The notes: generated by a model from the sequence alone, not told the origin. Shown: positions 6,369-24,586, numbered from the stretch's first letter. The stretch is DNA of 38,820 nt from a virus (IMGVR_UViG_2908572912_000003); one strand, 5' to 3'. Numbers and translations are program-made.

Positions 6369-6393
6369 TTTTTCGCATTCCTTTTATTGTTTT

Positions 6394-7596
6394 TTAATTA
6401 CTGGCTGATAGTGACTTAACGTAATTCCCCCACCAACTCATTAGCTCTATCCTTTGTTCTAAATAAATTGAACGATTATAAGCTCTACGTACTTCATTTT
6501 TATCTGTGTGCGCTAATGCTGACTCTATGACATCCGCATTCATCCCCGCTTCATTCATCGCTGTACTCGCAATAGACCTTAAACCATGAGCAACAAGCTT
6601 TCCACCATATCCAATTCTCTTCAGCGCAGCATTAGCCGTCTGGCTATTCATTGGTTGCTTTGGGTCATTCCTGCTCGGAAAAACGTGCTCTCGATTGGCA
6701 CTAATAGGTTTCATCACTTCGAGAATCTCTAATGCCTGAGTTGAGAGAGGAACTATGTGCTCACGTTTAGCCTTCATTCGTTCGGCCGGAATCGTCCATA
6801 GCTTTGTTTCGAGATCGATTTCAGCCCACCGAGCACCGGAGGCCTCAGAAGGGCGCACAAGGGTCAGGAGTTGCCATTCGATTAGACAGCGAGTCGGAAC
6901 AGACAGATTTGACATGACTAAAGAACGCATCAGCTTCGGCAATTCTTCTGGCCGCAACGTCGGCATGTTTTGCTTTTTGGGCTTCTCAAAGGCCATGCCA
7001 ACACCGGATGCTGGATTGGCATCAATCAGACCAGTGTTTACGGCATAAATCATGATTTCGTTAATACGCTGCACCAGTCGACGTACAGTCTCAAGCGCCC
7101 CACGTGCTTTTATTGGCTCAAGGGCTTCAACCAAAGTTCGGGCTTTGATTTGCTGAACGGGGATCTCACCGATGGCAGGGAATACATCTTTCTCCAGTGA
7201 ACGCCAAATGTCTTTTGCGTAATCAGGGGTAACGCTTTTGCTTTTGAGATGGAACCAGTTAGCGGCGACCGTTGAAAAAATACTGTCCAGAGCGATTTGC
7301 TGCTGTTCCTCTGCAACTTCGGCCTGAATTTGTGGGTCAATTCCGTTGGCTAACAAGGCAAGGTAATCCGCTCTTAACCCTCGGGCGTCAGCAAGTGAAA
7401 GGGCGGGGAAAGCACCTAGCCCCATCATTGTCCGCTGTTTTGTCGCCGGACGTTGATAACGGAAACGCCAGAGCTTTTTCCCGCTGGTTTTCACTATCAG
7501 GAAAAGGCCATCGCCATCATGCAGCGTTAGATCCTTCTCTAACGCTTTAGCGCGCAGAACTTCGGTGTTGGTCAGGGGGCGTGTTGTCCGTGCCAC
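6394..7596 (-). CDS. int: P4-type tyrosine integrase
   Basis: 400 aa; N-terminal arm-binding region (GLFLIVKTSGKKLWRFRYQ) and C-terminal catalytic region (HGLRSIAST...AHTD...RAYNR); GTG start with AAGGAG upstream; adjacent to the att core. Confidence 0.9.
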   Translation of the reverse strand: MARTTRPLTNTEVLRAKALEKDLTLHDGDGLFLIVKTSGKKLWRFRYQRPATKQRTMMGLGAFPALSLADARGLRADYLALLANGIDPQIQAEVAEEQQQIALDSIFSTVAANWFHLKSKSVTPDYAKDIWRSLEKDVFPAIGEIPVQQIKARTLVEALEPIKARGALETVRRLVQRINEIMIYAVNTGLIDANPASGVGMAFEKPKKQNMPTLRPEELPKLMRSLVMSNLSVPTRCLIEWQLLTLVRPSEASGARWAEIDLETKLWTIPAERMKAKREHIVPLSTQALEILEVMKPISANREHVFPSRNDPKQPMNSQTANAALKRIGYGGKLVAHGLRSIASTAMNEAGMNADVIESALAHTDKNEVRRAYNRSIYLEQRIELMSWWGNYVKSLSASN

Positions 7597-7618
7597 TGTG
7601 GTCGCTCCTTCATGAATT

Positions 7619-7666
7619 GGTATACGCTTTTAGGTATACATCCTACCGTATACCTAAACGTATACC
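7619..7666. promoter_or_regulatory. Cluster of GTATAC-core repeats in the integrase upstream region (possible Int or regulator binding sites)
   Basis: GGTATAC at 7619-7625 and 7633-7639, and CGTATACC at 7647-7654 and 7659-7666, within 70 bp upstream of the int start. Confidence 0.3.
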
Positions 7667-7712
7667 AATAATCACCGGATTTAGCCGGATGTTCTCGGAC
7701 AACGACAGACAC

Positions 7713-7744
7713 AAAAAAGCCCGCAGGGCTTATGCCGTGCGGGC
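7713..7744 (-). terminator. Rho-independent terminator following the tmRNA-like 3' end
   Basis: GCCCGCA...TGCGGGC hairpin (7719-7744) with an A-run on the plus strand (7713-7718), giving a U-tract on the minus strand just downstream of the att core. Confidence 0.5.
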
Positions 7745-7780
7745 TTTCTGTACTTCACTGGACGTATCCGGATCATGATT

Positions 7781-7808
7781 TGGTGGGCTGGCGGGAGTTG
7801 AACCCGCG
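7781..7808 (-). other. Attachment-site core: 3'-terminal 28 nt of a tmRNA (ssrA)-like gene, not a complete RNA gene
   Basis: Minus strand reads CGCGGGTTCAACTCCCGCCAGCCCACCA, nearly identical to the recalled E. coli ssrA 3' end (GCGGGTTCAACTCCCGCCAGCTCCACCA); the sequence 5' of it is AT-rich and not RNA-like. Confidence 0.55.
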
Positions 7809-7937
7809 TTCTATTAATGGTAAATAACTGTAATTTATAGCTTTTATTTGAAGTAGATCACATGCGTATCCTTTGTGGATACTTGAGGTATATGTTATAT
7901 ATAAAACATATATTTACATGAAGTAAATGGATGTTTT

Positions 7938-8561
7938 ATGACAATACAGGAAATAATTCAGCAACGTAATATTCGTAGCTTGTTTCATTTTACACATAGC
8001 GATAATCTAACTTCCATTTTAGATAATGGCCTTATGTCTCGTTCAGAACTTGATAATGAAAATAATGAATATAATTATAATGATGAAGAAAGGATTGATG
8101 GTCATCCAGATGCGATTTGTTTGTCCGTAAGTTACCCTAATGCAAAAATGTTTTATAAATATAGATGTTTAAAGCCTGGGGACTGGGTTATATTAGAAAT
8201 CAATCCATCTGTTCTTTGGGCTAAGGATTGCGCTTTTTATCCTACCAACGCAGCTTCGAATAACGTTCGTTTTATAAATCTTGATTTGATGAAAGGAGCT
8301 GAGGCATTTAGTGCTTTGTTTTCAGAGAATGTTTTTGGGATTCAGAGAGATGTAAACCTTCCAAGTGAGTATACGACGGATGTTCAAGCTGAAATACTGG
8401 TATTTGAAAAAATTCCTCCCTCATATATTATAAGCACTTTTCACCCTAACAAAGAATCTGCTGAACATTTCAAGAGATTATATCCACAGACAATACAGAG
8501 ATCTTATGATAATCTTAATGCTAGAACATTTTATTCTCAGAGGCATTATTATTTAGGATAA
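7938..8561 (+). CDS. DarT-like DNA ADP-ribosyltransferase toxin (DUF4433-like)
   Basis: 207 aa, AT-rich; N-terminal LFHFTHSDNLTSILDNGLMS resembles the recalled DarT NAD-binding motif; candidate catalytic Glu in AEILVFE near residue 150-155; a partner ORF follows 4 bp downstream. Confidence 0.5.
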   Translation: MTIQEIIQQRNIRSLFHFTHSDNLTSILDNGLMSRSELDNENNEYNYNDEERIDGHPDAICLSVSYPNAKMFYKYRCLKPGDWVILEINPSVLWAKDCAFYPTNAASNNVRFINLDLMKGAEAFSALFSENVFGIQRDVNLPSEYTTDVQAEILVFEKIPPSYIISTFHPNKESAEHFKRLYPQTIQRSYDNLNARTFYSQRHYYLG

Positions 8562-8564
8562 GTT

Positions 8565-9254
8565 ATGGCCGTTAGACCTGTTTTCGTCCCTACAAACGCA
8601 GGGAACTTACTATCGATCACGAAGGATGTGGATTTTCCTTGGGCTCCTGGTATGTCTAAAACGCAAAAGCAAAAATCGATCAGGGCGTTACATACAGCAG
8701 CGAATGAGCAGGGATTGAACTCTTTGTTGGAAATTTCTAGTAAATCCGAAGATGCGCTGGGGGTAGCACTTAGTGCATTTAATCTAAGAATAAAGACGAA
8801 AAGACTTGGGAAAGAGTTTACAGTTGAATCTGCATTTCAAGCAAGTAAAGTATTTGAAATGGGAGGACCATATGTCGATATCTTAGATAAAAGCTCGATA
8901 GAAGCAAAAAAAGATATGAGATTAAAGGAATCTGGGGGATTAGTTAACTTCAAATTTTATAATACAATATGGCCCATTGTCCCCAGGACTGCTTTTTATG
9001 ATTGGTTATATTTGAGTGCGCTCAATCAAAACAAAAATCTAGCACTCCATCTATTAAATTTTGATGGATTTACTGATATTGAATTTAATCCAGCGAAATC
9101 TATTAATTGCCAAGCCAGAGCAGCTGCACTTTTTGTCTCTTTAGTAAGACGAAATATGTTAGATGATGTTTTATCTTCAAAGGATGGTTTTTTATCAAAA
9201 TTAGCATCTCATTATGGTGTTGAAAATTATTCTATTCAACATACATTGATATGA
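8565..9254 (+). CDS. Partner of the DarT-like gene; possible NADAR (YbiA-like) domain antitoxin
   Basis: 229 aa with AGGA ribosome-binding site; LSAFNLRIKTKRLGKEFTVESAFQASKVF resembles the YbiA/NADAR segment FSNFAAWPIKVDGKTWPTSEHYFQAQKF; no macrodomain motifs (NAAN/GGGV) found. Confidence 0.4.
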   Translation: MAVRPVFVPTNAGNLLSITKDVDFPWAPGMSKTQKQKSIRALHTAANEQGLNSLLEISSKSEDALGVALSAFNLRIKTKRLGKEFTVESAFQASKVFEMGGPYVDILDKSSIEAKKDMRLKESGGLVNFKFYNTIWPIVPRTAFYDWLYLSALNQNKNLALHLLNFDGFTDIEFNPAKSINCQARAAALFVSLVRRNMLDDVLSSKDGFLSKLASHYGVENYSIQHTLI

Positions 9255-9256
9255 AT

Positions 9257-9280
9257 AATGGCCTGTAAAGGCCATTTTTA
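9257..9280. terminator. Bidirectional terminator between the convergent DarT-partner and integrase genes
   Basis: AATGGCC tgtaaa GGCCATT hairpin flanked by T-runs, filling the 32-bp gap between the two stop codons. Confidence 0.5.
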
Positions 9281-9286
9281 TCTAAA

Positions 9287-10456
9287 TTAATATCTATTTT
9301 TTCTATTTAAAGATGTATTTCCATCATATTCTTTGAGGTATGAGCCATAATGTCTAAATAACATCTCTGGTCCTTTATGACCCATTTGAACCGCAAGCCA
9401 AAACAGGTTTGCTCCCCGGCTGATATGGCTGGTGGCGAATGTATGTCTGGTTTGATATGGGTTTCTGTAACGAATACCTGCTTTCCGCAATGTTGGCACC
9501 CATGCTTTTTTTCTAATTGCATCAGCACTTGCCCAAGGCTTATTGGTCTTTGGATCTTCAAAGACTGTAGCATCCTTCATGAATGTAAATGGCTTCTGAT
9601 TTATCAGCGCCAACATTGCATCTTCTGTCAGTTCAACTTTACGAGTACCGGCTTTTGTCTTTGTTCCTTTGATAACACCGACAACACTTGCGCTCTGGAC
9701 ATGGGCAGTTTTTCCAACAAAGTCGATATCACGCCATCGAAGGGCACATAATTCAGAACTACGCAGGCCTGTATGTATAGCGAACCGGAACAGATTCTCC
9801 CATTGTTTGTTTCCGGCTGCTGCTAGTAATGCATCAACTTCTGCTGGTGATAGCGGATCAACCACGTAGCTGCTTTCTGCTTCTGACTTATCACTTTGGT
9901 AGCGCGAAGCAGTTACCAACGATACGGGGTTAATTTGAAGTACCCCATCGGTTACGGCTTCATCAAGTGCTGACCGCAGGAAAGATAACTGGTTGCGAAT
10001 TGTTTTTAAGGTCGTTTTCTGGCTTTGAATCCACGCTTTCAGGATTGCTGGTGTTAATTCACTTGCAGGGCAAATGTGGAGTGAGGCTAACGCACTACGG
10101 CATTTTTTATAACCACCAATCGTAGATGGTGAAAGTTTTCTCGTTTCGCAGATTTCAAGGTATTCGTCCAGGTACATTTTTACCGTTTTGCCTGCAGCAG
10201 CATTACCAAAAATTTTCAAACGAGCAGAACGGGGAAAATATTCCGCATAAATGAATGTTCCCCTTTCGATCTTATTATGAATTTCGCCGAGTGTGCGCTC
10301 GGCGTATTTAATGTTCTTTGGTGTTACTTCCAGATTGGAAAGAGGCTCACGACATCTAACTCCTTTGTAGGTGAAAGTTATATTGATCGTTTCGCCCTGG
10401 CGGTGTTTCCTGATTGTTACGCCGCGCGGTAGTTTGAGCAGTTTTGTCTGGCCCAT
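9287..10456 (-). CDS. int: Prophage tyrosine integrase
   Basis: 389 aa; catalytic region motifs (HTGLRSSELCALRW, HTFATSHI, GHKGPEMLFRHYGSY). Confidence 0.9.
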   Translation of the reverse strand: MGQTKLLKLPRGVTIRKHRQGETINITFTYKGVRCREPLSNLEVTPKNIKYAERTLGEIHNKIERGTFIYAEYFPRSARLKIFGNAAAGKTVKMYLDEYLEICETRKLSPSTIGGYKKCRSALASLHICPASELTPAILKAWIQSQKTTLKTIRNQLSFLRSALDEAVTDGVLQINPVSLVTASRYQSDKSEAESSYVVDPLSPAEVDALLAAAGNKQWENLFRFAIHTGLRSSELCALRWRDIDFVGKTAHVQSASVVGVIKGTKTKAGTRKVELTEDAMLALINQKPFTFMKDATVFEDPKTNKPWASADAIRKKAWVPTLRKAGIRYRNPYQTRHTFATSHISRGANLFWLAVQMGHKGPEMLFRHYGSYLKEYDGNTSLNRKNRY

Positions 10457-10898: not shown

Positions 10899-11257
10899 TT
10901 CTTAGTCTCTGGTGCTTTCGGCATTACTGCCCAGTGAGTGATATTGACGTTTTCAAGGTCCCCGACCTGAAATGTCCACTGCCATTCTCCGGTTTCTTTT
11001 TGCCCCCAGGTGTACCAGAGAGAACGCCAGCCAATTAGCCAGCCTTCTCCGTTAGCATCGAATAACAAAACACTTTCATTTGCTGGTGGCAGTTCAGTTG
11101 ACACTGGTATTGCTTTGTTTTCCTGTGCTGCACATTTAGCTTCAAGCGCATCGAATTTGCGCACCAGGTATTCAGCATCTGTTTCATTCACTTTCAGATC
11201 TCGCGGTACACATCTCCCACGAAGAAACCCTTCCATTTCGAAAACATTCATGCACAT
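10895..11257 (-). CDS. Hypothetical phage protein with Trp-rich C-terminus (DUF551-like)
   Basis: 120-aa ORF in an operonic chain with its neighbours; C-terminal GWRSLWYTWGQKETGEWQW segment. Confidence 0.45.
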   Translation of the reverse strand: MCMNVFEMEGFLRGRCVPRDLKVNETDAEYLVRKFDALEAKCAAQENKAIPVSTELPPANESVLLFDANGEGWLIGWRSLWYTWGQKETGEWQWTFQVGDLENVNITHWAVMPKAPETKK

Positions 11258-11784
11258 TTGCGTAACTCCGATAACTCGTTAAAACGTTCCATAAACATCC
11301 CGTAGGCATGGCCCGGTGCCAGTGGAATCACGTTGAACATCTCTGTTGCGGGGATGCCTTCCAGTACAGGCCAGAAAGAGCCATCATCAAGCCCGAGATC
11401 GCGGCGTTCGGTTGCCAGCATGATGAGATCGGCATATTTCACAGGCGTGCTCATAACCGGGGGTAACCCGTATTTCTCACGGATTACGGCGTCTATTTTT
11501 TCTTCCATCCGTTTATAGTCAGGAAGAAGGCGTTTCAGTGGCGCGGGGATGTCCTGACAATAAGCTTCTGTTGCATCATGCATTAACGCTTCAAAAGCAA
11601 ATTCCTGCGGCACCAACTGGCTGCAAAGAACCGCATGTTGGGCGACGCTGTAGAAGTGCGAAAGATGACCGGCAAAGCGACAGATATTTGAAAGGGAAAC
11701 CGCGATATCGTTAATATCGATGTCGTCTTTATTTATCCTGTCATAATAAAAATGCTTCCCGGAAAAAGTTTTAATAAATGACAT
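11248..11784 (-). CDS. HD-domain phosphohydrolase (YfbR-like 5'-deoxynucleotidase family)
   Basis: His...HD metal-binding pattern (SVAQHAVL...ALMHDATEAY); ATG at 11784 with GGAG upstream (the longer ORF from 11811 starts with GTG). Confidence 0.6.
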   Translation of the reverse strand: MSFIKTFSGKHFYYDRINKDDIDINDIAVSLSNICRFAGHLSHFYSVAQHAVLCSQLVPQEFAFEALMHDATEAYCQDIPAPLKRLLPDYKRMEEKIDAVIREKYGLPPVMSTPVKYADLIMLATERRDLGLDDGSFWPVLEGIPATEMFNVIPLAPGHAYGMFMERFNELSELRKCA

Positions 11785-11911
11785 TTTGTTCTCCACGTAT
11801 ATGCGCTGCACCGCGCTGAATTCTGGTAAAAAGAATCCCTCACCATCCGGCGATTATTGAGTAAATTACGTTTCCATAAATGCCCCCGCAGGGGCATTTG
11901 CAGTAATGAAA

Positions 11912-12736
11912 TCAGGCGGTGAAAGTACCAATAAAGGTTTCTACTTTGCTGTCCTTGAATTTCTCAACAAGCAGATCACGAAATTCGTTAGCCATTTCTT
12001 CCTGCACCGCCTCCAGCTGAATAATGCGCAGAACCAGTACAGGACGATCGCCAGTGATAATACTGAGGCGTAATTTAAACGGACGTTCTTTCAGACCTTC
12101 AAACGGAACGCATTTAAATTCAAATGCCACTGGCATAATGTCTTTGGTCTTCGCTTCGACAGACTCCATCAGGGAGCGTTTGCCGCTGAAGTCATTATCT
12201 TCAAAATCAGCGGTCTGGTTTGCTTCAATCGTGATTTTACGGACAGCCGCAGCCGCTTTTGTTGCCTGAATAGCGTCACCATTAGCATCAAAGCCCACAA
12301 GATAGTCGGCCCAGTCTTCAATCCATTCTGCCAGTGACTTCTGGGAGTTACGCTCGCCGTTAACAGACAACAGAGCAGAGAACGGTGCTGTCTTTTTCAG
12401 TTTGAGTGTGGCGGTGTTATCTGCGTGACCTGGTTCATCAATAGTACCCAGGTTAAGCACACTGACGGCACGCATATTATCAGCATCGATAAAGCAGCGG
12501 GTGCCTTCATCTGCAAGATCTTTAGAATAACGGGTAAAGTCATCGATGCTGGCAGTGGAAAGCGCACCACGGAAACGGAAGCGATTTAAATTAAATTTTT
12601 CCAGATCATGAATGCGGAAATTCTCAGGCAATGCCACAGCATCGGCACCAATCTTACTGATAATTTCATTAACACCCTGAGCAGAAATAAGGGCATGGAT
12701 TTGATTAATTGAGGTTGCGTCTAAGTTCTGAGACAT
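11912..12736 (-). CDS. Phage early protein, YfdQ-like (DUF2303)
   Basis: 274-aa ORF, ATG with GAGGA upstream; sequence recalled as similar to CPS-53 yfdQ-type prophage proteins. Confidence 0.5.
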
Positions 12737-12801
12737 AATAAGTCCTCACTATATAAAGATATTCAGTGATGAGATAAATAATCAGTTAATTAAAAACGAT
12801 A

Positions 12802-13164
12802 TTAACGACCTGCTGCGCGGAGTTTTCCGTCAGGTTCACCGGCAAGAGTCAGTAACTGTCCCTGGTCTTCCTGCAGAATAGTCAGGCGACCACCGCGATT
12901 GACATACATCGGCGTTTCGGTGGTGTCTTCTTCGGAAATTTTCCCGCGGTTAGTCGGGCGAACATATGAGAGTTTGTGTTTGATTTTCACACGGTTCTCA
13001 TCAAATGGTTCGATTTCCAGGTTGAGTGAGACCTTACCTTTGGTTTTCGTGTTCATCACACCGGAAGCGACTTCACTGAGAACTGCGCCGATTTTGGTTT
13101 CAAATACGCCGCCGTCCAGCTCCCCGATAAATGCCTGCACGTCAGTACTGCGTTCGCTAGCCAT
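12802..13164 (-). CDS. Hypothetical phage early protein
   Basis: 120-aa ORF starting MASERSTDVQ... with GAGGAG upstream; the longer upstream extension to 13482 has junk-like composition. Confidence 0.5.
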   Translation of the reverse strand: MASERSTDVQAFIGELDGGVFETKIGAVLSEVASGVMNTKTKGKVSLNLEIEPFDENRVKIKHKLSYVRPTNRGKISEEDTTETPMYVNRGGRLTILQEDQGQLLTLAGEPDGKLRAAGR

Positions 13165-13632
13165 TTTGCTGCTCCTCATCATATCGACCCTGCAAGGCCG
13201 ATTAGTTTCTCCACAAAACAGAGAAGAACACCTGCGGTGGCAGCCGCCCGGATGGATTGGGTTATGAGCCCGTCGTCCGGTGATGCTCTTCTCTGTTTTG
13301 TAAAAAGGACGGTACCAGCCGGAAGCAAGGGTACAAACTGGTACCGCCAGGACTACACACAGCATAAAGTTGTGGTGCCGGGTGCCTCCCGGTGCCTGGC
13401 GAAGGTTGCACACCAGGCGGGTGGGTATCCACAGAAGGTCGACTGTCAGCCTCAACCTTAACCCGCGTGCGCTGAGCCGCATTCACCACAACGCTAAGGA
13501 TTCTCTCTGGTTGAAAATACTTAGCTGTTATGTGCCTGCTTTTAGCCACATCAGGCGAGGTGGACCTAGTTATTCCCCAACAACAAGGATTCGGTTAATC
13601 TGGTTATCCCCAACAACGCAAAAGGAAAAGAA

Positions 13633-14067
13633 ATGTCCGGTAATATCTATACGCTGTACAAATCCCACTGTGAAAATGTTGGAAAGTATCGGGGCATTGA
13701 AATCAGTGGGGTAGTGTCATCAGCCGAAATAAGCAAAGTTGAATCAAGGGCAACATTACTTACTCTTTTGGACCTTGTCTTACATGAGCACCGGAAGAAA
13801 TTCGGCACTCCCTATAATCAGTTGAATGGGAAAAAGGCTCTGGTTCACCTTATTCTGATGAAGCATCACTGGATGCCAAAACAGATTAATGAGATGAAAT
13901 TTGATGAACTTCTTCTTTCAATTCAGGATGAACTCACACTTGATAAAATAAGCGTAACCGCCCAGAAATTTTTAGATTATCGAGACTGGAGATCACAAAT
14001 TCATCACTTTGATGATTTTGACGAAAATGAATGGGATCCTAATTTGTCTGCACAATATCTAAAGTAA
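13633..14067 (+). CDS. Hypothetical acidic protein (144 aa), opposite strand to the early operon
   Basis: AT-rich ORF with AAGGAAAAG ribosome-binding site; ends 5 bp before the IS1 left end; no recognisable motifs. Confidence 0.5.
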   Translation: MSGNIYTLYKSHCENVGKYRGIEISGVVSSAEISKVESRATLLTLLDLVLHEHRKKFGTPYNQLNGKKALVHLILMKHHWMPKQINEMKFDELLLSIQDELTLDKISVTAQKFLDYRDWRSQIHHFDDFDENEWDPNLSAQYLK

Positions 14068-14127
14068 CATCCGGTGATGCTGCCAACTTACTGATTTAGT
14101 GTATGATGGTGTTTTTGAGGTGCTCCA

Positions 14128-14403
14128 GTGGCTTCTGTTTCTATCAGCTGTCCCTCCTGTTCAGCTACTGACGGGGTGGTGCGTAACGGCAAAAGCACCG
14201 CCGGACATCAGCGCTATCTCTGCTCTCACTGCCGTAAAACATGGCAACTGCAGTTCACTTACACCGCTTCTCAACCCGGTACGCACCAGAAAATCATTGA
14301 TATGGCCATGAATGGCGTTGGATGCCGGGCAACTGCCCGCATTATGGGCGTTGGCCTCAACACGATTTTACGTCACTTAAAAAACTCAGGCCGCAGTCGG
14401 TAA
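14128..14403 (+). CDS. insA: IS1 InsA
   Basis: [43 protein letters not shown]... matches recalled IS1 InsA. Confidence 0.85.
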
Positions 14404-14825
14404 CCTCGCGCATACAGCCGGGCAGTGACGTCATCGTCTGCGCGGAAATGGACGAACAGTGGGGATACGTCGGGGCTAAATCGCGCCAGCGCTGGCTGTT
14501 TTACGCGTATGACAGGCTCCGGAAGACGGTTGTTGCGCACGTATTCGGTGAACGCACTATGGCGACGCTGGGGCGTCTTATGAGCCTGCTGTCACCCTTT
14601 GACGTGGTGATATGGATGACGGATGGCTGGCCGCTGTATGAATCCCGCCTGAAGGGAAAGCTGCACGTAATCAGTAAGCGATATACGCAGCGAATTGAGC
14701 GGCATAACCTGAATCTGAGGCAGCACCTGGCACGGCTGGGACGGAAGTCGCTGTCGTTCTCAAAATCGGTGGAGCTGCATGACAAAGTCATCGGGCATTA
14801 TCTGAACATAAAACACTATCAATAA
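14322..14825 (+). CDS. insB: IS1 InsB reading frame (expressed as the InsAB' transposase by -1 frameshift)
   Basis: ...[36 protein letters not shown]... matches recalled IS1 InsB. Confidence 0.8.
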
Positions 14826-14840
14826 GTTGGAGTCATTACC

Positions 14841-15011
14841 GGCAAAACCATTCCGGGTAACGATGATGTGGTGAAGCCCGTCAAAGAGCAGGCGGAAAAC
14901 AAAATCGATGGTGCAGTTGCGCTGATTATGGCGGTTGGCAGAGCCATGCTGTACGAGAAAGAAGACACGCTGTCTGACCACATTGAGTCCTATGGGATCC
15001 GCTCGCTTTAA
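14841..15011 (+). pseudogene. 3' remnant of a terminase large-subunit-like gene, truncated by IS1
   Basis: Frame is open from the first base after IS1 (…[24 protein letters not shown]…, 56 codons) and ends just before the portal gene; no start codon or N-terminal portion present. Confidence 0.4.
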
Positions 15012-15022
15012 CTGAGGTAATT

Positions 15023-15205
15023 ATGATCATGCTGATTCTCGCGCCTCTGGTGGGCGTGCTGGGGGCGCTTTTGCTGGCGTATGGTGCCTGGCTGATTTAT
15101 CCCCCGGCGGGGTTTGTTGTTGCCGGGGCGTTGTGCCTGTTCTGGTCGTGGCTGGTGGCGCGATATCTCGACCGTACACAGTCGTCTGTCGGCGGAGGTA
15201 AATAG
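15023..15205 (+). CDS. Small hydrophobic (membrane) protein
   Basis: 60-aa ORF with GAGGT ribosome-binding site; predominantly hydrophobic; abuts the portal start. Confidence 0.4.
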
Positions 15206-16446
15206 TGTTCTTTTCGGGATTATTTCAACGAAAAAGTGACGCACCGGTGACCACGCCAGCAGAGCTGGCGGATGCTATCGGGTTGTCCTACGACACCTAT
15301 ACCGGAAAGCAGATCAGCAGCCAGCGGGCCATGCGACTGACGGCGGTTTTTTCCTGTGTCAGGGTGCTGGCAGAGTCGGTCGGGATGTTGCCCTGCAATC
15401 TGTATCACCTGAACGGCAACCTGAAACAGAGAGCCACCGGCGAACGTCTGCATAAGCTGATCTCCACGCATCCCAATGGCTATATGACGCCGCAGGAGTT
15501 CTGGGAGCTGGTGGTCACCTGTCTGTGCCTGCGGGGCAACTTTTACGCCTACAAAGTGAAAGCATTTGGCGAAGTGGCTGAACTGCTGCCCGTCGATCCC
15601 GGTTGTGTGGTACCGAAGCTTAACAGTCGCTGGGAGCCGGTCTATCAGGTCACATTCCCGGACGGCTCCACGGATGTACTGAGCCAGGAAGATATCTGGC
15701 ATGTGCGCACGCTGACGCTGGACGGTCTGGTGGGACTGAATCCCATCGCCTATGCCCGCGAGGCAATATCGCTGGCAGCTGCGACCGAAGAGCACGGGGC
15801 CAGACTGTTCAGCAATGGTGCGGTGACGTCCGGTGTGTTGCGTACAGAGCAGACGCTGTCGGATCAGGCTTATGAGCGCCTGAAGAAAGATTTTGAGGAG
15901 CGTCACACCGGGCTTGGCAATGCTCACCGCCCGATGATCCTTGAGATGGGGCTGGACTGGAAGTCGATGGCGCTGAACGCCGAGGACAGCCAGTTCCTGG
16001 AAACCCGCAAGTTTCAGCTTGAAGAAATCTGTCGTCTGTTCCGGGTGCCATTGCACATGGTGCAGAACACCGATCGCGCCACCTTCAACAATATCGAAGA
16101 GCTGGGGCTGGGATTTATCAACTATTCACTGGTGCCGTATCTGACCCGCATCGAACAGCGGATCAACACCGGACTGGTACGAAAAAGTAAGCAGGGCGTT
16201 TATTACGCCAAATTTAACGCCGGGGCGTTACTGCGCGGGGATATGAAGTCCCGTTTTGAAGCCTACGCCACCGGGATCAACTGGGGAATTTACTCTCCCA
16301 ATGACTGCCGCGATCTGGAAGATATGAATCCGCGTCCCGGTGGTGATGTCTATCTCACACCGATGAACATGACCACGAAACCCTCCGATGGCAGTAAAGC
16401 CGGTAAGCAGAAGGATAACGCCAATGCAGACGAAACAACGTCTTGA
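15205..16446 (+). CDS. Phage portal protein (HK97 family)
   Basis: 413 aa; GTG start with GGAGG upstream; position upstream of the protease and major capsid genes. Confidence 0.8.
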   Translation: MFFSGLFQRKSDAPVTTPAELADAIGLSYDTYTGKQISSQRAMRLTAVFSCVRVLAESVGMLPCNLYHLNGNLKQRATGERLHKLISTHPNGYMTPQEFWELVVTCLCLRGNFYAYKVKAFGEVAELLPVDPGCVVPKLNSRWEPVYQVTFPDGSTDVLSQEDIWHVRTLTLDGLVGLNPIAYAREAISLAAATEEHGARLFSNGAVTSGVLRTEQTLSDQAYERLKKDFEERHTGLGNAHRPMILEMGLDWKSMALNAEDSQFLETRKFQLEEICRLFRVPLHMVQNTDRATFNNIEELGLGFINYSLVPYLTRIEQRINTGLVRKSKQGVYYAKFNAGALLRGDMKSRFEAYATGINWGIYSPNDCRDLEDMNPRPGGDVYLTPMNMTTKPSDGSKAGKQKDNANADETTS

Positions 16447-17074
16447 TGTACCGCTGAGTCTGAAGTCTGTCAGTGACTCCGGTGAGTTTGAAGGGTATGG
16501 CTCCGTCTTTGGTGTAAAGGACAGCCACGATGATGTGGTGATGTCCGGGGCATTTGCCGCCTCCCTGCGGGCGTGGAGTGACAGAAAAGCGTTACCTGCG
16601 CTGCTCTGGCAGCACCGCATGGATGAGCCCATCGGTGTTTACACCGAAATGAAGGAAGACGATGTCGGGCTTTACGTCAGGGGGCGGTTGCTCATTGATG
16701 ATGATCCCCTGGCAAAACGCGCACATGCACACATGAAGGCCGGTTCGTTAACCGGCCTTTCTATTGGGTACGTCCTGAAAGACTGGGAGTACGACCGGAC
16801 GAAAGAAGCCTTTCTGCTGAAAGAAATCGACCTCTGGGAAGTCAGTCTGGTGACGTTCCCGTCTAACGACGAGGCGCGGATCAGCGACGTCAAGAACGCG
16901 CTGGCCCGCGGGGAAATCCCCGAACAGAAAAAAATCGAAAGGGTCCTGCGTGATGTCGGACTCTCCCGTACCCAGGCCAAAGCATTCATGGCCGGGGGCT
17001 ATGGCGCACTGTCCCTGCGCGACGCTGAGGATGTGAGCTCTGCACTGAATGCACTGAAAAATCTGAACTTCTAA
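16424..17074 (+). CDS. Prohead protease (HK97 family)
   Basis: ATG at 16424 with AAGGA upstream, overlapping the portal 3' end; sits between portal and major capsid genes. Confidence 0.75.
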   Translation: MQTKQRLDVPLSLKSVSDSGEFEGYGSVFGVKDSHDDVVMSGAFAASLRAWSDRKALPALLWQHRMDEPIGVYTEMKEDDVGLYVRGRLLIDDDPLAKRAHAHMKAGSLTGLSIGYVLKDWEYDRTKEAFLLKEIDLWEVSLVTFPSNDEARISDVKNALARGEIPEQKKIERVLRDVGLSRTQAKAFMAGGYGALSLRDAEDVSSALNALKNLNF

Positions 17075-17088
17075 TCAGGAGAAATACG

Positions 17089-18294
17089 ATGGCGGTAGAT
17101 ATTAAAGATGTCGAACAGGTCGCGCAGGAGCTGCAGCAGAAGTTTGACGACTTCAAAGCAAAGAACGACAAGCGCGTGGATGCGATTGAGCAGGAAAAAA
17201 GCAAGCTTGCCGGGCAGGTGGAAACCCTGAACGGAAAACTCAGCGAGCTGGAAAACCTCAAAAGCGATCTTGAAAAAGAGCTGCTTGAGCTGAAACGTCC
17301 GGCAGGTGGTGCGCAAAATAAACTGACCACCGAGCATAAAGAAGCGTTTGTGGGCTTCCTGCGTAAAGGCCGTGAAGATGGTCTGCGCGATCTGGAGCGC
17401 AAGGCATTACAGGTGGGCACCGATGAAGACGGCGGCTATGCCGTGCCGGAAGCGCTGGATCGCAACATTCTGACCTTGCTGAAAGATGAAGTGGTGATGC
17501 GTCAGGAAGCCACGGTGATCACCATTGGTGGTTCCGACTACAAAAAACTGGTGAATCTGGGCGGCACGGCTTCCGGATGGGTTGGCGAGACTGACGCGCG
17601 CTCCCAGACTGCCACCTCAAAACTGGGCCTGATTGAACCTTTCATGGGGGAAATCTACGGTAACCCGCAGGCCACCCAGAAAATGCTGGATGATGCCTTT
17701 TTCAACGTGGAAGCATGGATCAACAGCGAGCTGGCAACCGAATTTGCCGAACAGGAAGAAATTGCCTTTACCACCGGCGATGGTACCAAGAAGCCGAAAG
17801 GGTTCCTGGCGTATGAATCCACTGATGAAACCGATAAGGTCCGGGCGTTCGGCAAACTTCAGCATATTGTATCCGGCGAAGCGACGGCGGTGACCGCAGA
17901 CGCCATTATCAAACTGATTTACACGCTGCGTAAGGCACACCGCATCGGCGCGAAGTTCATGATGAACAACAACAGCCTGTTTGCCATCCGTCTGCTTAAA
18001 GACAGCGAGGGTAACTATCTGTGGCGTCCGGGGCTGGAACTGGGGCAGCCGTCCTCTCTGGCGGGTTACGGTATCGCTGAAAACGAACAGATGCCGGATA
18101 TCGCCGCTGATGCGAAAGCCATTGCATTTGGTAACTTCAAACGGGGTTACACCATCGTTGACCGTATCGGCACCCGCATTCTGCGTGACCCGTACACCAA
18201 TAAACCGTTTGTCGGTTTTTATACCACCAAGCGCACCGGCGGGATGCTGGTCGATTCGCAGGCCATCAAACTGCTGAAGATTGCAGCGGCGTAA
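17089..18294 (+). CDS. Major capsid protein (HK97 fold) with N-terminal coiled-coil delta domain
   Basis: 401 aa; coiled-coil N-terminus (ELQQKFDDFKAKNDKRVDAIEQEK...) followed by the capsid domain; AGGAG ribosome-binding site. Confidence 0.85.
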   Translation: MAVDIKDVEQVAQELQQKFDDFKAKNDKRVDAIEQEKSKLAGQVETLNGKLSELENLKSDLEKELLELKRPAGGAQNKLTTEHKEAFVGFLRKGREDGLRDLERKALQVGTDEDGGYAVPEALDRNILTLLKDEVVMRQEATVITIGGSDYKKLVNLGGTASGWVGETDARSQTATSKLGLIEPFMGEIYGNPQATQKMLDDAFFNVEAWINSELATEFAEQEEIAFTTGDGTKKPKGFLAYESTDETDKVRAFGKLQHIVSGEATAVTADAIIKLIYTLRKAHRIGAKFMMNNNSLFAIRLLKDSEGNYLWRPGLELGQPSSLAGYGIAENEQMPDIAADAKAIAFGNFKRGYTIVDRIGTRILRDPYTNKPFVGFYTTKRTGGMLVDSQAIKLLKIAAA

Positions 18295-18301
18295 TCACTC
18301 A

Positions 18302-18322
18302 GGGGCGCGGAACCGCGCCCCC
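18302..18322 (+). terminator. GC-rich hairpin after the major capsid gene (possible attenuator)
   Basis: GGGGCGCGG aa CCGCGCCCC perfect palindrome directly after the capsid stop; the following T-tract is weak. Confidence 0.3.
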
Positions 18323-18343
18323 TGTTCTGACGGGTGAAGAATC

Positions 18344-18544
18344 ATGATCCTGAAACAAGATCTGAAATGGTCACCGGACGGTATGCGTGTTGAGGTCATT
18401 CGGGCCGGTGAGTATGACGACGGGGCGCTTCCTGCCCGGGTGCAGGAGATTGCACTTCAGGCCGGGTTAGCAGAGCGCGGAATCAGTGCAAAAAGCAGTA
18501 AAGCGGCAAAAGAGAAAAAAGCCACGACCAGTAAAGAGGGCTGA
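18344..18544 (+). CDS. Hypothetical small head-region protein
   Basis: 66-aa ORF between the capsid and connector genes. Confidence 0.4.
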   Translation: MILKQDLKWSPDGMRVEVIRAGEYDDGALPARVQEIALQAGLAERGISAKSSKAAKEKKATTSKEG

Positions 18545-18546
18545 GT

Positions 18547-18870
18547 ATGCTTCTGACAATGGAAGAGATTAAAGCCCAACTCCGGCTGGATGAGGATTTC
18601 GATGCTGATGACCGCCATCTGCAACTGCTGGCCTGTGCGGCACAAAAGCGGACGGAAACGTATCTGAACCGGAAGCTCTATGCACCGGATGAAACCATTC
18701 CGGACAGCGATCCGGACGGGCTGCACCTGCCGGATGATATTCGTCTGGGGATGCTGATGCTTATCAGCCATTTTTACGAAAACCGCTCGTCGGTTACGGA
18801 AGTGGAGAAACTCGACATGCCGCAGAGTTTTGGCTGGCTTGTCGGCCCGTACAGGTACTTTCCGCAATGA
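18547..18870 (+). CDS. Head-tail connector protein (gp6-like)
   Basis: 107-aa ORF with GAGGG ribosome-binding site in the expected position of the morphogenesis cluster. Confidence 0.55.
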   Translation: MLLTMEEIKAQLRLDEDFDADDRHLQLLACAAQKRTETYLNRKLYAPDETIPDSDPDGLHLPDDIRLGMLMLISHFYENRSSVTEVEKLDMPQSFGWLVGPYRYFPQ

Positions 18871-19277
18871 AAATTCGTCAGGCGCAGACCAGCGCAACCT
18901 ACATTCTGCCGGACCCCGGTGAACTGAATAAACGCGTCCTGATCCGCCTGCGGGTGGATATGCCCGCGGATAACTTTGGCGTGGAGCCTCAATACCCGGT
19001 TACGTTCCGGACATGGGCGAAGGTTATCCAGACCAGTGCCACCACCTGGCAGGAAACCGCGCAGACCGGGGACGCCATCACCCATTACATCACCATTCGT
19101 TACCGCCGGGGGATCACCGCTGATTATGAGGTGGTCTGCGGTGACAGTGTGTACCGGGTGAAACGTCAGCGCGATCTGAACGGGGCGCGGCGCTTTCTGC
19201 TGCTGGAGTGTACGGAGCTGGGCGAATGTAGGCAGAGTCACGGAGGCAACAATGACGACTTCCTTTTTGCACGTTGA
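18867..19277 (+). CDS. Head closure / head-tail adaptor protein
   Basis: 136-aa ORF, start overlapping the upstream stop; assignment by position. Confidence 0.45.
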   Translation: MKIRQAQTSATYILPDPGELNKRVLIRLRVDMPADNFGVEPQYPVTFRTWAKVIQTSATTWQETAQTGDAITHYITIRYRRGITADYEVVCGDSVYRVKRQRDLNGARRFLLLECTELGECRQSHGGNNDDFLFAR

Positions 19278-19758
19278 TTTTCAGCAGCCCGCGGAGATGC
19301 GCTTTAACCGCGCCCGTGTCCGGCGGGCGTTTGTCACGATTGGTCAGCGTCATATGCGTGATGCCCGTCGGCTGGTGATGCGCCGTGCGCGGTCGGCACC
19401 GGGTGAAAACCCCGGTTATCAGACCGGACGCCTGGCTCGTTCAATTGGTTACATGGTACCCAGAGCCAGTAAACATCGCCCTGGTTTTATGGCACGTATA
19501 GCCCCTAACCAGCGTAATGGAGAGGGAAACCGCCGTATCACCGGTGATTTTTATCCGGCTTTTTTGTTCTATGGCGTGAGGCGAGGGGCAAAGCGTCGTC
19601 GCAGCCATCATCGTGGTGCATCCGGTGGCAGCGGCTGGCGACTGGCTCCACGTAATAACTTCATGGTGGAAACTCTTGAAAAGAACCGCAGCTGGACACG
19701 CTATTTTCTGGCGCGGGAATTGCGTAAATCACTGAAGCCGGAGCGACGACACAGATGA
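19252..19758 (+). CDS. HK97 gp10-like neck / tail completion protein
   Basis: 168-aa basic protein with GGAGG ribosome-binding site; assignment by position. Confidence 0.45.
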   Translation: MTTSFLHVDFQQPAEMRFNRARVRRAFVTIGQRHMRDARRLVMRRARSAPGENPGYQTGRLARSIGYMVPRASKHRPGFMARIAPNQRNGEGNRRITGDFYPAFLFYGVRRGAKRRRSHHRGASGGSGWRLAPRNNFMVETLEKNRSWTRYFLARELRKSLKPERRHR

Positions 19759-20315
19759 AACTGACGCCTGTTATTGCTGCACTGCGTGCCCGCTGTCCGT
19801 ATTTTGAAAACCGGGTTGCAGGCGCGGCCCAGTTCAAAAATCTGCCGGAGGTCGGAAAGCTGAAACTCCCGGCGGCATATGTTGTACCGGGTGATGATTC
19901 TCCGGGAGAAAACAAAAGCCAGACCGACTACTGGCAGGAGCTGAAAGAGGGTTTCTCCGTGGTTGTCATACTGAGTAACGGGCGTGATGAGCGCGGTCAG
20001 TTTGCCTCGTATGATGTGGTGGACGATGTCCGGCAGATGCTCTTTAAGGCTCTGCTGGGCTGGAACCCGGAGGCGTGCGGTAACCCGATTACCTATGACG
20101 GCGGCACGCTGCTGGATCTGAATCGTCATGAGCTGATTTATCAGTTCGATTTTTCGGTCATCAGCGAGCTAACCGAAGACGATACCCGCCAGCAGGATGA
20201 GCTGAACAGTCTGGATGAACTGCGAACGCTGGCGATTGATGTTGATTATCTCGATCCCGGTAACGGGCCTGACGGCGATATCGAACATCACACCGAAATA
20301 CCCCTTCCTTCCTGA
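19755..20315 (+). CDS. Phage tail-proximal structural protein (tail terminator-like)
   Basis: 186-aa ORF, overlapping start, immediately upstream of the sheath gene. Confidence 0.4.
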   Translation: MKLTPVIAALRARCPYFENRVAGAAQFKNLPEVGKLKLPAAYVVPGDDSPGENKSQTDYWQELKEGFSVVVILSNGRDERGQFASYDVVDDVRQMLFKALLGWNPEACGNPITYDGGTLLDLNRHELIYQFDFSVISELTEDDTRQQDELNSLDELRTLAIDVDYLDPGNGPDGDIEHHTEIPLPS

Positions 20316-20323
20316 GGATCCTC

Positions 20324-24582: not shown

Positions 24583-24586
24583 TACC

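What the first reader, a model, noticed from the sequence alone, without database searches (positions are those of the whole stretch)
13633..14067. Orphan 144-aa acidic protein facing the early operon, adjacent to the IS1 junction
An AT-rich ORF on the opposite strand to the early genes, with a good ribosome-binding site and no recognisable motifs, ends 5 bp before IS1. Opposite-strand accessory genes in early regions are often superinfection-exclusion or abortive-infection functions. Because IS1 has no target-site duplication, the gene may have been brought into this context by an IS1-mediated rearrangement.
Basis: inference. Interest (0 to 1): 0.5.

Follow-up and report, generated by a model that had tools for sequence, protein, structure and literature searches.

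The report
Conserved antisense prophage cargo gene, partner lost
The 144-codon gene is real and conserved, but it has no known function: it belongs to a family of temperate-phage accessory genes that always sit backwards inside a phage's lytic operons next to a small partner gene, and here an IS1-linked deletion has removed the partner and the phage's control region.

Summary
The ORF at 13633-14067 (+) is real. It has 144 codons, an AAGGA ribosome-binding site 6 nt upstream, 38% GC against 53% for the prophage, and it stops 5 bp before IS1. It is neither an orphan nor clearly acidic (pI 6.4). It matches NCBIfam NF033230 (ECs1072 family) and PHROG 5286, both of unknown function. It differs by one residue (A31V) from Shigella phage SfIV gp36 and occurs in 416 of 5,426 complete E. 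coli genomes.

IS1 did not bring the gene here. Its upstream neighbours are the native SfIV ones. The IS1 junction marks a deletion of about 13.7 kb that removed the repressor, replication, lysis and most terminase genes.

The AlphaFold model is confident (pLDDT 92) and all-helical, with no match in Pfam, PADLOC, PDB or BFVD.

New here: in four phage operon contexts the gene lies antisense to lytic transcription. In 9 of 13 lineages its 3' end overlaps a small lytic-strand gene that carries a shared motif and is YdfC-like in SfIV. The two genes swap as one cassette into a slot that matches the position of lambda sieB.

The best guess is a lysogen-expressed exclusion function (about 0.35). This is inferred from position only and is untested.

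The parts
13633..14067 (+). Gene A: ECs1072-family phage-associated protein. It is 144 aa, soluble and all-helical, and differs from SfIV gp36 by one residue (A31V).
   Evidence: ORF listing. NF033230 at 158.3 bits against a cut-off of 70. PHROG 5286 at E = 4e-90. tblastn to SfIV and relatives at 99.3%. AF2 pLDDT 91.8. No transmembrane segment, with a maximum 19-residue Kyte-Doolittle hydropathy of 0.84.
13622..13626 (+). Ribosome-binding site AAGGA, 6 nt before the ATG.
   Evidence: Read directly from the sequence.
13564..13621 (+). Conserved leader and probable promoter region of the + strand cargo slot. It contains two direct repeats of GTTAT(T)CCCCAACAAC at 13569-13584 and 13603-13617. A weak candidate promoter is TTCCCC-16-TAATCT (-10 at 13595-13600).
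   Evidence: The region is shared almost unchanged with prophages that carry unrelated cargo genes, up to 10-30 nt before the start codon. A block of about 50 nt is about 76% identical to locus L006, where synonymous sites of the gene are saturated. The consensus scan found no canonical sigma-70 promoter, and the predicted RNA structure is weak at -4 kcal/mol. The promoter call is inference.
14039..14072 (-). Last 34 nt (3' end) of partner gene B, a YdfC-like 68-aa protein in PHROG 1744. The rest of B was deleted. 29 nt overlap the 3' end of gene A.
   Evidence: SfIV B spans 28097-28303 on the - strand, and the window is collinear with SfIV only up to 28130-28136.
14073..14840 (+). IS1 (768 bp, insA/insB on the + strand) without a target-site duplication. 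It is the junction of a deletion of about 13.7 kb relative to SfIV.
   Evidence: The element is 99.2% identical to, and in the same orientation as, the IS1 copy in SfIV at 35186-35953. The flanks correspond to SfIV 28130-28136 and 2121.
14841..15011 (+). C-terminal remnant (56 codons plus the stop) of the terminase large subunit. This is the right edge of the deletion.
   Evidence: Window 14840-22367 matches SfIV 2121-9659 at 95%, and SfIV terL spans 559-2292. One search lists only the 47-aa GTG-initiated part of this frame (14868-15011).
13300..13522 (-). STnc100/PasD-like structured RNA element, divergent from gene A. It overlaps the ORF that RefSeq annotates as ymfH or as a frameshifted hypothetical protein.
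   Evidence: Rfam RF02076 scores 43.1 bits (gathering score 47), E = 8e-8. The same family scores 108 bits directly upstream of the gene A homologue in Klebsiella phage KPP5665-2.
12802..13165 (-). yfdP, the first retained protein gene of the early-left operon and the native left neighbour of gene A.
   Evidence: Annotated as YfdP in collinear E. coli prophages and in SfIV.

Best explanation
Shown. The ORF is a genuine gene, called A here, of the ECs1072 family of temperate-phage accessory proteins. It sits in its native place in a defective SfIV-like prophage.

In intact relatives A is a + strand transcription unit set inside the leftward early operon. Transcription from the PL-like promoter first reads a small gene B (68 aa, YdfC-like), then runs antisense across A, then continues into the STnc100-like element and yfdP/Q/R. 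A's stop lies inside B, with a 29-nt convergent overlap. A's intrinsic terminator lies just beyond B's start codon, so the A transcript is antisense to the whole of B.

A and B are exchanged together as one cassette of about 0.68 kb. The slot they occupy has a leader and a terminator that are fixed parts of the phage backbone. The position matches that of lambda sieB, which lies antisense next to N.

In this window an IS1-associated deletion of about 13.7 kb removed B (except its last 34 nt), the terminator, PL, the repressor, cro, and the replication, Q, lysis and terS genes, plus most of terL. A is left intact but without its partner.

Inferred. A is made in the lysogen from its own weak promoter and interferes with lytic development of incoming phages, acting as a cytoplasmic exclusion or abortive-infection function. 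When the carrier phage itself goes lytic, transcription from the lytic promoter silences A through antisense collision and produces B, which counteracts A. This is the logic of P22 sieB/esc/sas.

I put identity, native context and the deletion history at 0.9 or higher. The exclusion mechanism is about 0.35.
For: Family membership and conservation.

Native context and deletion.

Antisense placement in four operon contexts:
- Immunity-left slot (L002, L003, L007-L009, L017-L019, L023).
- Early-right operon between the cII-like gene and the replication gene in Sakai Sp4 (ECs1072, now ECs_5703).
- Between Q and holin in ST64B and Klebsiella phages.
- P2-like early operon in Pantoea.

Partner gene B:
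- A convergent, 3'-overlapping ORF with the motif P-x-[ILF]-[VIFYW]-x-x-G-x-[TSN]-x-x-[EQ]-[LI]-x-x-W-[ML] is present in 9 of 13 lineages.
- The motif occurs nowhere else in 370 kb read in six frames. It was derived from these same sequences, so that count is not an independent test.
- The SfIV-type B is PHROG 1744 and is 38-39% identical to ydfC-annotated genes.

Cassette behaviour: the A+B ORFs are replaced together, while the leader and the + strand terminator are shared with prophages carrying unrelated 170-aa, 171-aa or ymfI cargo. Those prophages lack the B motif.

Promoter and terminator geometry in SfIV: a - strand TTGACA-16-CATAAT promoter with GTAC repeats sits at 28498-28471, and a + strand terminator at 28362-28381. 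That terminator is conserved in L007 and L008. ST64B and the Klebsiella phage instead have a + strand terminator inside B.

Positional precedent: lambda sieB (34482-35036, +) abuts N (35037-35438, -). A Pfam SieB gene sits between A and the repressor in a Yersinia prophage.

Foreign base composition.

Expression: a probe for the distantly related Sakai gene (ECs1072, the family's name-giver) changed 2.13-fold at a growth transition in an uninduced lysogen culture (PMC2241611). This is weak evidence.

Against: A is soluble, whereas SieB is a membrane protein, so any similarity is positional only.

No canonical sigma-70 promoter was found upstream of A, so expression in the lysogen is not shown for this gene.

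B-like (YdfC family) genes also occur without A. A occurs without a recognisable B in L006 and L024, and with only doubtful positional equivalents in L019 and L023.

The window shows that A is tolerated without B. A is therefore not a constitutively toxic protein that needs B as an antidote, unless it is not expressed here.

Confidence: 0.35

Rival explanations
1. A and B form a kil/anti-kil or toxin-antitoxin-like pair that serves the phage itself. B is a lytic-phase small protein acting on the host, like other early-left products such as Kil or DicB. A, together with the antisense A transcript that covers B, keeps leaky B expression harmless in the lysogen. On this reading A has no role against other phages.
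For: The A transcript unit covers B completely in antisense. A and B move together as one cassette. B is always co-oriented with lytic transcription, and in SfIV it is the first gene after PL. B belongs to the YdfC family of the dicB-type early operon. The window shows that A without B is tolerated, as expected if B is the harmful partner.
Against: YdfC-like genes exist in many phages with no A-like antisense gene, so B does not generally need A. No toxicity of B is known. The convergent arrangement of two protein genes does not fit any described toxin-antitoxin type. A occurs without B in L006 and L024.
Confidence: 0.2
2. A is a lysis-lysogeny regulator. Either the protein modulates the S24-type repressor or an early-left function, or the act of transcribing A against PL damps the early-left operon by transcriptional interference and so stabilises lysogeny.
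For: In most lambdoid contexts A lies within about 0.5-1 kb of the S24 repressor gene and faces PL. The convergent promoter geometry is described. The conserved leader has direct repeats that could be operator sites.
Against: The same gene also occurs between Q and holin, between cII and the replication gene, and in a P2-like early operon. All three are far from the repressor. In the same backbone the slot holds unrelated cargo genes, which is unusual for a core regulator. No DNA-binding domain was detected.
Confidence: 0.15
3. A is an early lytic or counter-defence protein, made on infection to inhibit a host defence or other host function.
For: A is a small soluble phage protein of unknown fold with an acidic C-terminal third. 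Many such phage proteins are inhibitors.
Against: A is antisense to the lytic operon in every phage context examined, so lytic transcription would oppose its expression. Its overall pI of 6.4 is not that of a DNA mimic. It has its own terminator.
Confidence: 0.08
4. One reading: the gene is foreign to this prophage and was carried in by an IS1-mediated rearrangement.
For: IS1 lacks a target-site duplication, and the gene is AT-rich compared with its neighbours.
Against: The gene and 2.7 kb to its left are collinear with SfIV at 99% identity. The same arrangement is found in 412-416 IS1-free E. coli loci. On the right of IS1 the sequence resumes inside SfIV terL, which is the signature of a deletion. 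No complete E. coli genome shares this junction.
Confidence: 0.02

Closest known systems
NCBIfam NF033230 'ECs1072 family phage-associated protein' / PHROG 5286 (both of unknown function); SfIV gp36 (YP_008766900.1)
   Same: Full-length matches above the curated cut-off (158 bits against 70; E = 4e-90). One residue differs from SfIV gp36. The length of about 145-155 aa and the conserved R54, H72, W80 and W134 are shared.
   Different: Nothing differs. The gene is a member. Neither resource assigns a function, and I found no paper on the family. Searches for the ECs1072 locus tag (one microarray table), the WP accession and the PHROG id gave nothing else.
Lambda and P22 sieB (superinfection exclusion B; Pfam PF14163), with the P22 esc/sas self-escape
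   Same: Both are genes set antisense in the early-left operon, converging on the first PL gene beside the immunity region (lambda sieB + strand against N - strand). In both cases lytic PL transcription is antisense to the gene. A Yersinia prophage has a true SieB gene beside the A homologue on the same strand.
   Different: There is no sequence or Pfam similarity. A has no transmembrane segment, whereas SieB is a membrane protein. In P22 the escape factor Esc is an in-frame product of sieB itself (own knowledge, Ranade and Poteete 1993), not a separate convergent gene. No function has been shown for A.
Morons of lambdoid phages (Juhala et al. 2000, own knowledge) and swappable cargo hotspots such as those of P2 and P4
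   Same: A differs in base composition from the phage. It is present or absent among otherwise near-identical prophages. The slot has its own terminator, and alternative unrelated cargo genes occupy the same slot.
   Different: The cargo here is a two-gene convergent cassette (A plus B). The same pair recurs in four different operon positions, always antisense to lytic transcription. The promoter is not identified.
YdfC (Qin prophage dicB operon) / PHROG 1744, the family of partner gene B
   Same: SfIV-type B is 38-39% identical over 97% of its length to genes annotated ydfC or YdfC family, and it lies in an early-left operon like ydfC.
   Different: YdfC itself has no known function, and in YdfC-type phages there is no A-like antisense gene. 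B is absent from this window except for its last 34 nt.
BstA-type abortive-infection genes placed next to prophage repressors, with a self-immunity element (Owen et al. 2021, own knowledge)
   Same: The concept is the same: a prophage gene beside the repressor that blocks other phages, together with a linked device that spares the carrier phage.
   Different: There is no sequence relationship (PADLOC negative). BstA is a large DNA-binding protein, and its self-immunity element is a DNA sequence rather than a convergent protein gene. This is an analogy only and was not tested.

Membership tests
NCBIfam NF033230 (ECs1072 family phage-associated protein) | Whole-protein HMM score at or above the curated cut-off of 70 bits, over the full length | tested here: met
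   158.3 bits, residues 4-144 against profile positions 2-142 of 142. Homologues from Sakai, ST64B, Klebsiella and Pantoea also pass, at 105.7, 167.5, 168.7 and 73.9 bits.
PHROG 5286 | Significant full-length HMM match | tested here: met
   E = 4.3e-90, residues 1-144 against 1-144 of 144.
SieB superinfection exclusion (Pfam PF14163) | Match to the SieB profile | tested here: not met
   No Pfam family matched, even at E up to 10. None of 51 family members hit SieB.
SieB superinfection exclusion (Pfam PF14163) | Membrane-spanning segments | tested here: not met
   Maximum 19-residue Kyte-Doolittle hydropathy is 0.84 and GRAVY is -0.48. The AF2 model is a soluble helical bundle.
SieB superinfection exclusion (Pfam PF14163) | Gene lies antisense within the early-left operon, next to the first PL gene and the immunity region | tested here: met
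   Lambda sieB/N geometry compared with SfIV A/B/PL geometry.
SieB superinfection exclusion (Pfam PF14163) | Aborts lytic growth of superinfecting phage in lysogens | not testable with these tools
   This needs phage challenge assays.
Moron (autonomous accessory transcription unit in a prophage) | Base composition differs from the surrounding phage genes | tested here: met
   38.2% GC against 52.8% for the prophage.
Moron (autonomous accessory transcription unit in a prophage) | Present or absent among otherwise closely related phages | tested here: met
   About 2,780 E. coli genomes share the upstream region, and 416 of them carry the gene. Other cargo genes occupy the slot in the rest.
Moron (autonomous accessory transcription unit in a prophage) | Own transcription terminator | tested here: met
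   A + strand stem-loop with a T-run lies at SfIV 28362-28381 and is conserved in L007 and L008. An alternative + strand terminator lies inside B in ST64B and the Klebsiella phage. In the window itself the terminator is deleted.
Moron (autonomous accessory transcription unit in a prophage) | Own promoter | tested here: inconclusive
   No consensus sigma-70 site was found upstream. There is a conserved leader block with a weak TTCCCC-16-TAATCT candidate.
Moron (autonomous accessory transcription unit in a prophage) | Expressed from the repressed prophage | not testable with these tools
   The only evidence is a microarray signal for the Sakai gene ECs1072, a distant family member.
Known anti-phage defence systems (PADLOC-DB v2.0.0) | Match to any defence-protein model | tested here: not met
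   No families matched at E up to 10.
HEPN-type RNase toxins (they appeared among the non-significant Foldseek hits) | R-x(4-6)-H catalytic motif in a four-helix bundle, with a significant fold match | tested here: not met
   Conserved R54 and H72 are 18 residues apart. Foldseek matches to HEPN toxins have E of 3.3 or more and TM-scores of 0.26 or less.
Type II toxin-antitoxin pair | Two small genes co-transcribed in one operon | tested here: not met
   A and B are convergent, with overlapping 3' ends.
IS1 | 768-bp element with terminal inverted repeats and insA/insB, flanked by an 8-9 bp target duplication after simple insertion | tested here: met
   Length, ends and the insA/insB ORFs are present, and the element is 99.2% identical to the SfIV IS1 copy. 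The target duplication is absent, which fits an IS1-associated deletion rather than a simple insertion.

The most novel reading that the evidence does not exclude
A and B together are a previously unrecognised, mobile two-gene prophage module. A is a new-fold cytoplasmic protein made in the lysogen that blocks development of incoming phages. B, together with the antisense transcription that reads through the pair from the carrier phage's lytic promoter, is a built-in off switch that spares the carrier phage. The module can insert, always backwards, into early-left, early-right, late or P2-type early operons.
Probability: 0.25. Interest if true: 0.7.

Novelty: new member of a known kind. Interest (0 to 1): 0.4.

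Why it matters
Temperate phages carry many small genes of unknown function in fixed slots, and several of these slots have turned out to hold anti-phage functions. This family has a clear genomic signature. It is always antisense to lytic transcription, it has a convergent overlapping partner, it travels as a swappable cassette, and in the SfIV-type phages it sits where lambda keeps sieB. The predicted fold is confident and has no solved relative. It occurs in about 8% of complete E. coli genomes and in Shigella, Salmonella, Klebsiella, Yersinia, Pectobacterium, Lonsdalea and Pantoea prophages. That makes it a cheap, well-defined candidate for a phage-challenge test.

For this window specifically the finding is more modest. 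The gene is a leftover of a truncated cassette in a dead prophage, and IS1 explains the truncation rather than the gene's presence.

Tried and rejected
Homology searches gave no function:
- Pfam on the protein and on 51 family members.
- PADLOC.
- PDB sequence search with a profile; the only hit was myoglobin at E = 0.83.
- Foldseek against the PDB and BFVD, all E above 0.5.
- The AlphaFold database library was not available.

A HEPN-like reading was considered because HEPN toxins appeared among the weak Foldseek hits. I rejected it on the motif spacing and the scores.

Alternative cargo genes of the same slot (YmfI, the 171-aa and the 170-aa proteins) are not remote homologues of A, with hhalign probability about 0.1%. 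They have no Pfam or PADLOC assignment either.

The search for related loci failed with the deep alignment. With the shallow alignment it returned only two near-identical loci.

A structured RNA leader upstream of A was tested and not supported, with a consensus energy of -4 kcal/mol and one covarying pair.

Literature searches for ECs1072, WP_000016389 and phrog_5286 found only one microarray table. Roberts et al. 2007, on SfV termination-mediated immunity, covers the homologous SfV region but could not be read. SfV itself lacks gene A.

The idea that STnc100-like RNA always accompanies A was rejected. It is adjacent only in the SfIV-like and Klebsiella contexts.

dN/dS could not be computed as a ratio because dS is saturated.

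Full report
**Observation**

It runs from 13633 to 14067 on the + strand, starts with ATG and encodes 144 aa. AAGGA lies 6 nt before the start codon.

- Composition: 38.2% GC, against 52.8% for the rest of the prophage.
- Neighbours: the retained early genes to its left (yfdP, yfdQ, yfdR and onwards to the integrase) are all on the - strand.
- IS1 junction: the stop codon is followed by 'catcc' and then a 768-bp IS1 at 14073-14840. Its 9-bp flanks (gtaacatcc and ggcaaaacc) are not a target duplication.

Two descriptors do not hold.

- 'Acidic': pI is 6.4 with a net charge of about -2. Only the last third is acidic.
- 'Orphan': the protein matches NCBIfam NF033230 (ECs1072 family phage-associated protein) at 158 bits against a cut-off of 70. 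It also matches PHROG 5286 over its full length.

**It is a real, conserved gene**

- An exhaustive HMMER search of 1.84 billion representatives found 76 clusters at E below 1e-3. Most full-length members are stand-alone proteins of about 145-155 aa.
- A 51-sequence alignment has near-invariant L50, R54, L64, G66, H72, W80 and W134.
- Between lineages that are 52-57% identical, synonymous sites are saturated while dN is 0.32-0.48.
- AlphaFold2 with that alignment gives a confident all-helical model of seven helices (pLDDT 91.8, pTM 0.86).
- The protein has no membrane segment.

**History of the locus**

The window protein differs from Shigella phage SfIV gp36 by one residue, A31V. Three alignments to SfIV define the locus.

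| Window | SfIV | Identity |
|---|---|---|
| 10904-14078 | 24962-28136 | 99%, no gaps |
| 14073-14840 (IS1) | 35186-35953 (SfIV's own IS1 copy, same orientation) | 99.2% |
| 14840-22367 | 2121-9659 | 95% |

- IS1 therefore marks a deletion of about 13.7 kb relative to SfIV. The lost genes are a small 68-aa gene, the S24 (LexA/UmuD-like) repressor, cro, the cII-like gene, the replication genes, Q, the lysis genes, terS, and all but the last 56 codons of terL.
- The same yfdP/intergenic/ORF arrangement, without IS1, occurs in 412-416 of 5,426 complete E. coli genomes. No complete E. coli genome has this IS1 junction.
The missing target duplication reflects an IS1-associated deletion.
- One or two adjacent deletions from an IS1 copy at the SfIV position would explain the result, but that is inference.
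- The flanking early genes are also intact and 99% identical to SfIV, so the deletion looks recent. The intactness of the ORF says little about selection.

**No functional assignment by similarity**

- Pfam (protein and 51 relatives): negative.
- PADLOC: negative.
- PDB sequence profile search: only a myoglobin hit at E = 0.83.
- Foldseek against the PDB and viral models: all E above 0.5.
- The AlphaFold database library was unavailable.
- I found no paper on the family. The Sakai gene ECs1072, a distant member that gives the family its name, appears in one microarray table. It changed 2.13-fold at a growth transition, which at least suggests transcription in an uninduced lysogen culture.

**What the surroundings show**

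(1) *Orientation.* In every phage context I could retrieve, the gene (A) lies on the strand opposite to the surrounding lytic operon. There are four different contexts.

| Context | Loci |
|---|---|
| Between the early-left operon and the S24 repressor | Escherichia, Shigella, Yersinia, Pectobacterium, Lonsdalea |
| Between the cII-like gene and the replication gene of Sakai Sp4 (original ECs1072, now ECs_5703; 105.7 bits; hhalign probability 97%) | E. coli O157 Sakai |
| Between the Q antiterminator and holin (an unannotated 144-aa ORF in ST64B) | ST64B, Klebsiella phages |
| Inside the cox-to-replication early operon of P2-like prophages | Pantoea |

(2) *Partner gene.* In 9 of 13 distinct lineages a small ORF (B, 67-119 aa) on the lytic strand overlaps the 3' end of A convergently. 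The overlap is 29-194 nt, and up to about 320 nt for the unannotated Sakai ORF.

- B carries the N-terminal motif P-x-[ILF]-[VIFYW]-x-x-G-x-[TSN]-x-x-[EQ]-[LI]-x-x-W-[ML].
- That motif occurs nowhere else in 370 kb of fetched DNA read in six frames. It was derived from these same sequences, so this count is not an independent test.
- The SfIV-type B is PHROG 1744 and is 38-39% identical to genes annotated ydfC.
- The profile comparison of SfIV-type and ST64B-type B is weak on its own (P = 4e-4).
- YdfC-like genes also occur without A.
- A occurs without a recognisable B in two loci. Two further loci have only doubtful positional equivalents.

(3) *Cassette behaviour.* In otherwise near-identical E. 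coli prophages the slot holds A+B, an unrelated 171-aa gene, an unrelated 170-aa gene, e14 ymfI/ymfJ, or - strand genes.

- Homology to the backbones with other cargo ends 15-30 nt before A's start codon. It resumes just before a + strand intrinsic terminator beyond B's start.
- The A and B ORFs are therefore exchanged together, while the leader and the terminator belong to the slot.
- Loci with other cargo lack the B motif.

(4) *Transcription geometry in SfIV.*

- A strong - strand promoter (TTGACA-16-CATAAT), flanked by GTAC-containing repeats like those between cI and cro, lies at 28498-28471.
- B is the first gene downstream of it.
- The + strand terminator at 28362-28381 ends the A unit after it has crossed the whole of B in antisense.
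- Lambda shows the same topology: sieB (+) abuts N (-) just left of PL.
- A Yersinia prophage has a Pfam SieB gene between A and the repressor.

(5) *Leader.*

- The 50-70 nt before A, including two GTTAT(T)CCCCAACAAC repeats at 13569-13584 and 13603-13617, are conserved. A block of about 50 nt is about 76% identical to locus L006, although synonymous sites of the gene are saturated.
- The predicted RNA structure is weak, and no consensus sigma-70 promoter is found.
- A weak TTCCCC-16-TAATCT candidate is my inference.

**Most likely mechanism**

Shown: A is a native accessory gene of an SfIV-like prophage. It is half of a mobile A+B convergent cassette placed antisense to lytic transcription, and here it has lost its partner through an IS1-associated deletion.

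Inferred: A is expressed in the lysogen and interferes with lytic development of incoming phages. The carrier phage's own lytic transcription silences A by antisense and produces B to counter it, as P22 does with sieB, esc and sas (own knowledge, Ranade and Poteete 1993). I put this at about 0.35.

Rivals:

| Rival | Confidence | Main weakness |
|---|---|---|
| B is a lytic host-directed protein, and A plus its antisense transcript is its lysogenic brake | 0.2 | YdfC-like genes usually have no such brake |
| A regulates the lysis-lysogeny switch | 0.15 | The gene also sits far from the repressor, and the slot takes unrelated cargo |
| A is an early counter-defence protein | 0.08 | It is antisense to lytic transcription |
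| IS1 imported the gene | 0.02 | Refuted by collinearity with SfIV |

The window adds one constraint. A is tolerated without B, so A is not a constitutively toxic protein that depends on B, unless it is not expressed here.

**Comparison with what is known**

- Membership of NF033230 and PHROG 5286 is established. Both are labelled function unknown.
- The gene is not a SieB family member: there is no profile match and no membrane segment. The resemblance to sieB is positional.
- It meets the compositional, presence/absence and terminator criteria of a moron. The promoter is unresolved and expression was not tested.
- It matches no PADLOC defence model and does not fit a type II toxin-antitoxin or HEPN pattern.

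**Verdict**

The gene is a catalogued but uncharacterised prophage cargo gene. The added value here is the consistent antisense placement, the linked partner gene, and the sieB-like slot. Together these make the family a reasonable candidate for a new exclusion function. In this window it is only a truncated remnant in a dead prophage. Interest 0.4.

Noticed in passing
window 13300-13522 (-): An STnc100/PasD-like structured RNA element lies in the GC-rich intergenic region between yfdP and the ORF. It scores 43.1 bits against Rfam RF02076, just under the gathering score of 47, at E = 8e-8. RefSeq annotates the same stretch as ymfH or as a 'frameshifted hypothetical protein', which suggests a non-coding RNA miscalled as a gene. 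The same family scores 108 bits directly upstream of the homologous gene in Klebsiella phage KPP5665-2 (L016 3528-3723).
   Followed up: partly
window 1-7596: A P4-like satellite. It contains C4 antisense RNA (798-885), isrK (948-1025) and the a1/b1 targets (986-1038). It also has Ash and derepression-protein genes, an Ogr/Delta gene (2589-3146), psu (3220-3792), and an integrase (6394-7596). A 743-aa ORF with no Pfam domain (4137-6368, -) sits between psu and the integrase, where P4-like elements usually carry defence cargo.
   Followed up: partly
window 7938-9254 (+): A DarT (ssDNA thymidine ADP-ribosyltransferase) gene followed by its NADAR antitoxin, that is a DarTG1-type toxin-antitoxin and defence pair. 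It is wedged between the P4-like integrase and the prophage integrase.
   Followed up: no
window 24758-25876 (-): A DDE transposase ORF (PF01609) lies inside the tail module, in a stretch (22367-26756) that does not align with SfIV. This is a second IS-type disruption of the prophage, which is therefore doubly defective.
   Followed up: no
window 33348-38820: Right of the prophage tail-fibre genes lie an Acyl_transf_3 gene (33348-34415, -), which may be an O-antigen acetylase and so a serotype-conversion gene, and a GIY-YIG protein (34967-35791). After these come a Dcm-type C5 methylase (36102-37577) and an EcoRII-type endonuclease (37612-38820, running to the end of the window). The whole window is a stack of mobile elements and defence genes.
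   Followed up: no
L015 3281-3715 (Salmonella phage ST64B NC_004313, record 36435-36869, record - strand): ST64B has an intact but unannotated 144-aa ECs1072-family gene (167.5 bits). It lies antisense between sb50 and the holin gene sb51, and it overlaps the 3' end of sb50 by 71 nt.
   Followed up: yes
L026 29117-29852 (E. coli O157 Sakai, NC_002695 about 1169116-1169851): The family's name-giving gene ECs1072 has been re-tagged ECs_5703. It lies antisense in the early-right operon of prophage Sp4. An unannotated + strand ORF with the partner-gene motif (PHIWRGGLSDVELAEWL) overlaps it convergently.
   Followed up: yes
L029 3417-3449 and 3600-3896 (phage SfV NC_003444): SfV shares the intergenic region up to window position 13563. 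It then has an annotated - strand terminator and orf33 in place of the + strand cargo. This may be the region studied as 'transcription-termination-mediated immunity' in SfV (Roberts et al. 2007), which I could not read.
   Followed up: partly
window 13569-13584 and 13603-13617 (+): Two direct repeats of GTTAT(T)CCCCAACAAC lie 34 bp apart, just upstream of the ORF. They are conserved in prophages whose slot carries other + strand cargo and in a divergent lineage (L006). They may be a promoter or an operator.
   Followed up: partly
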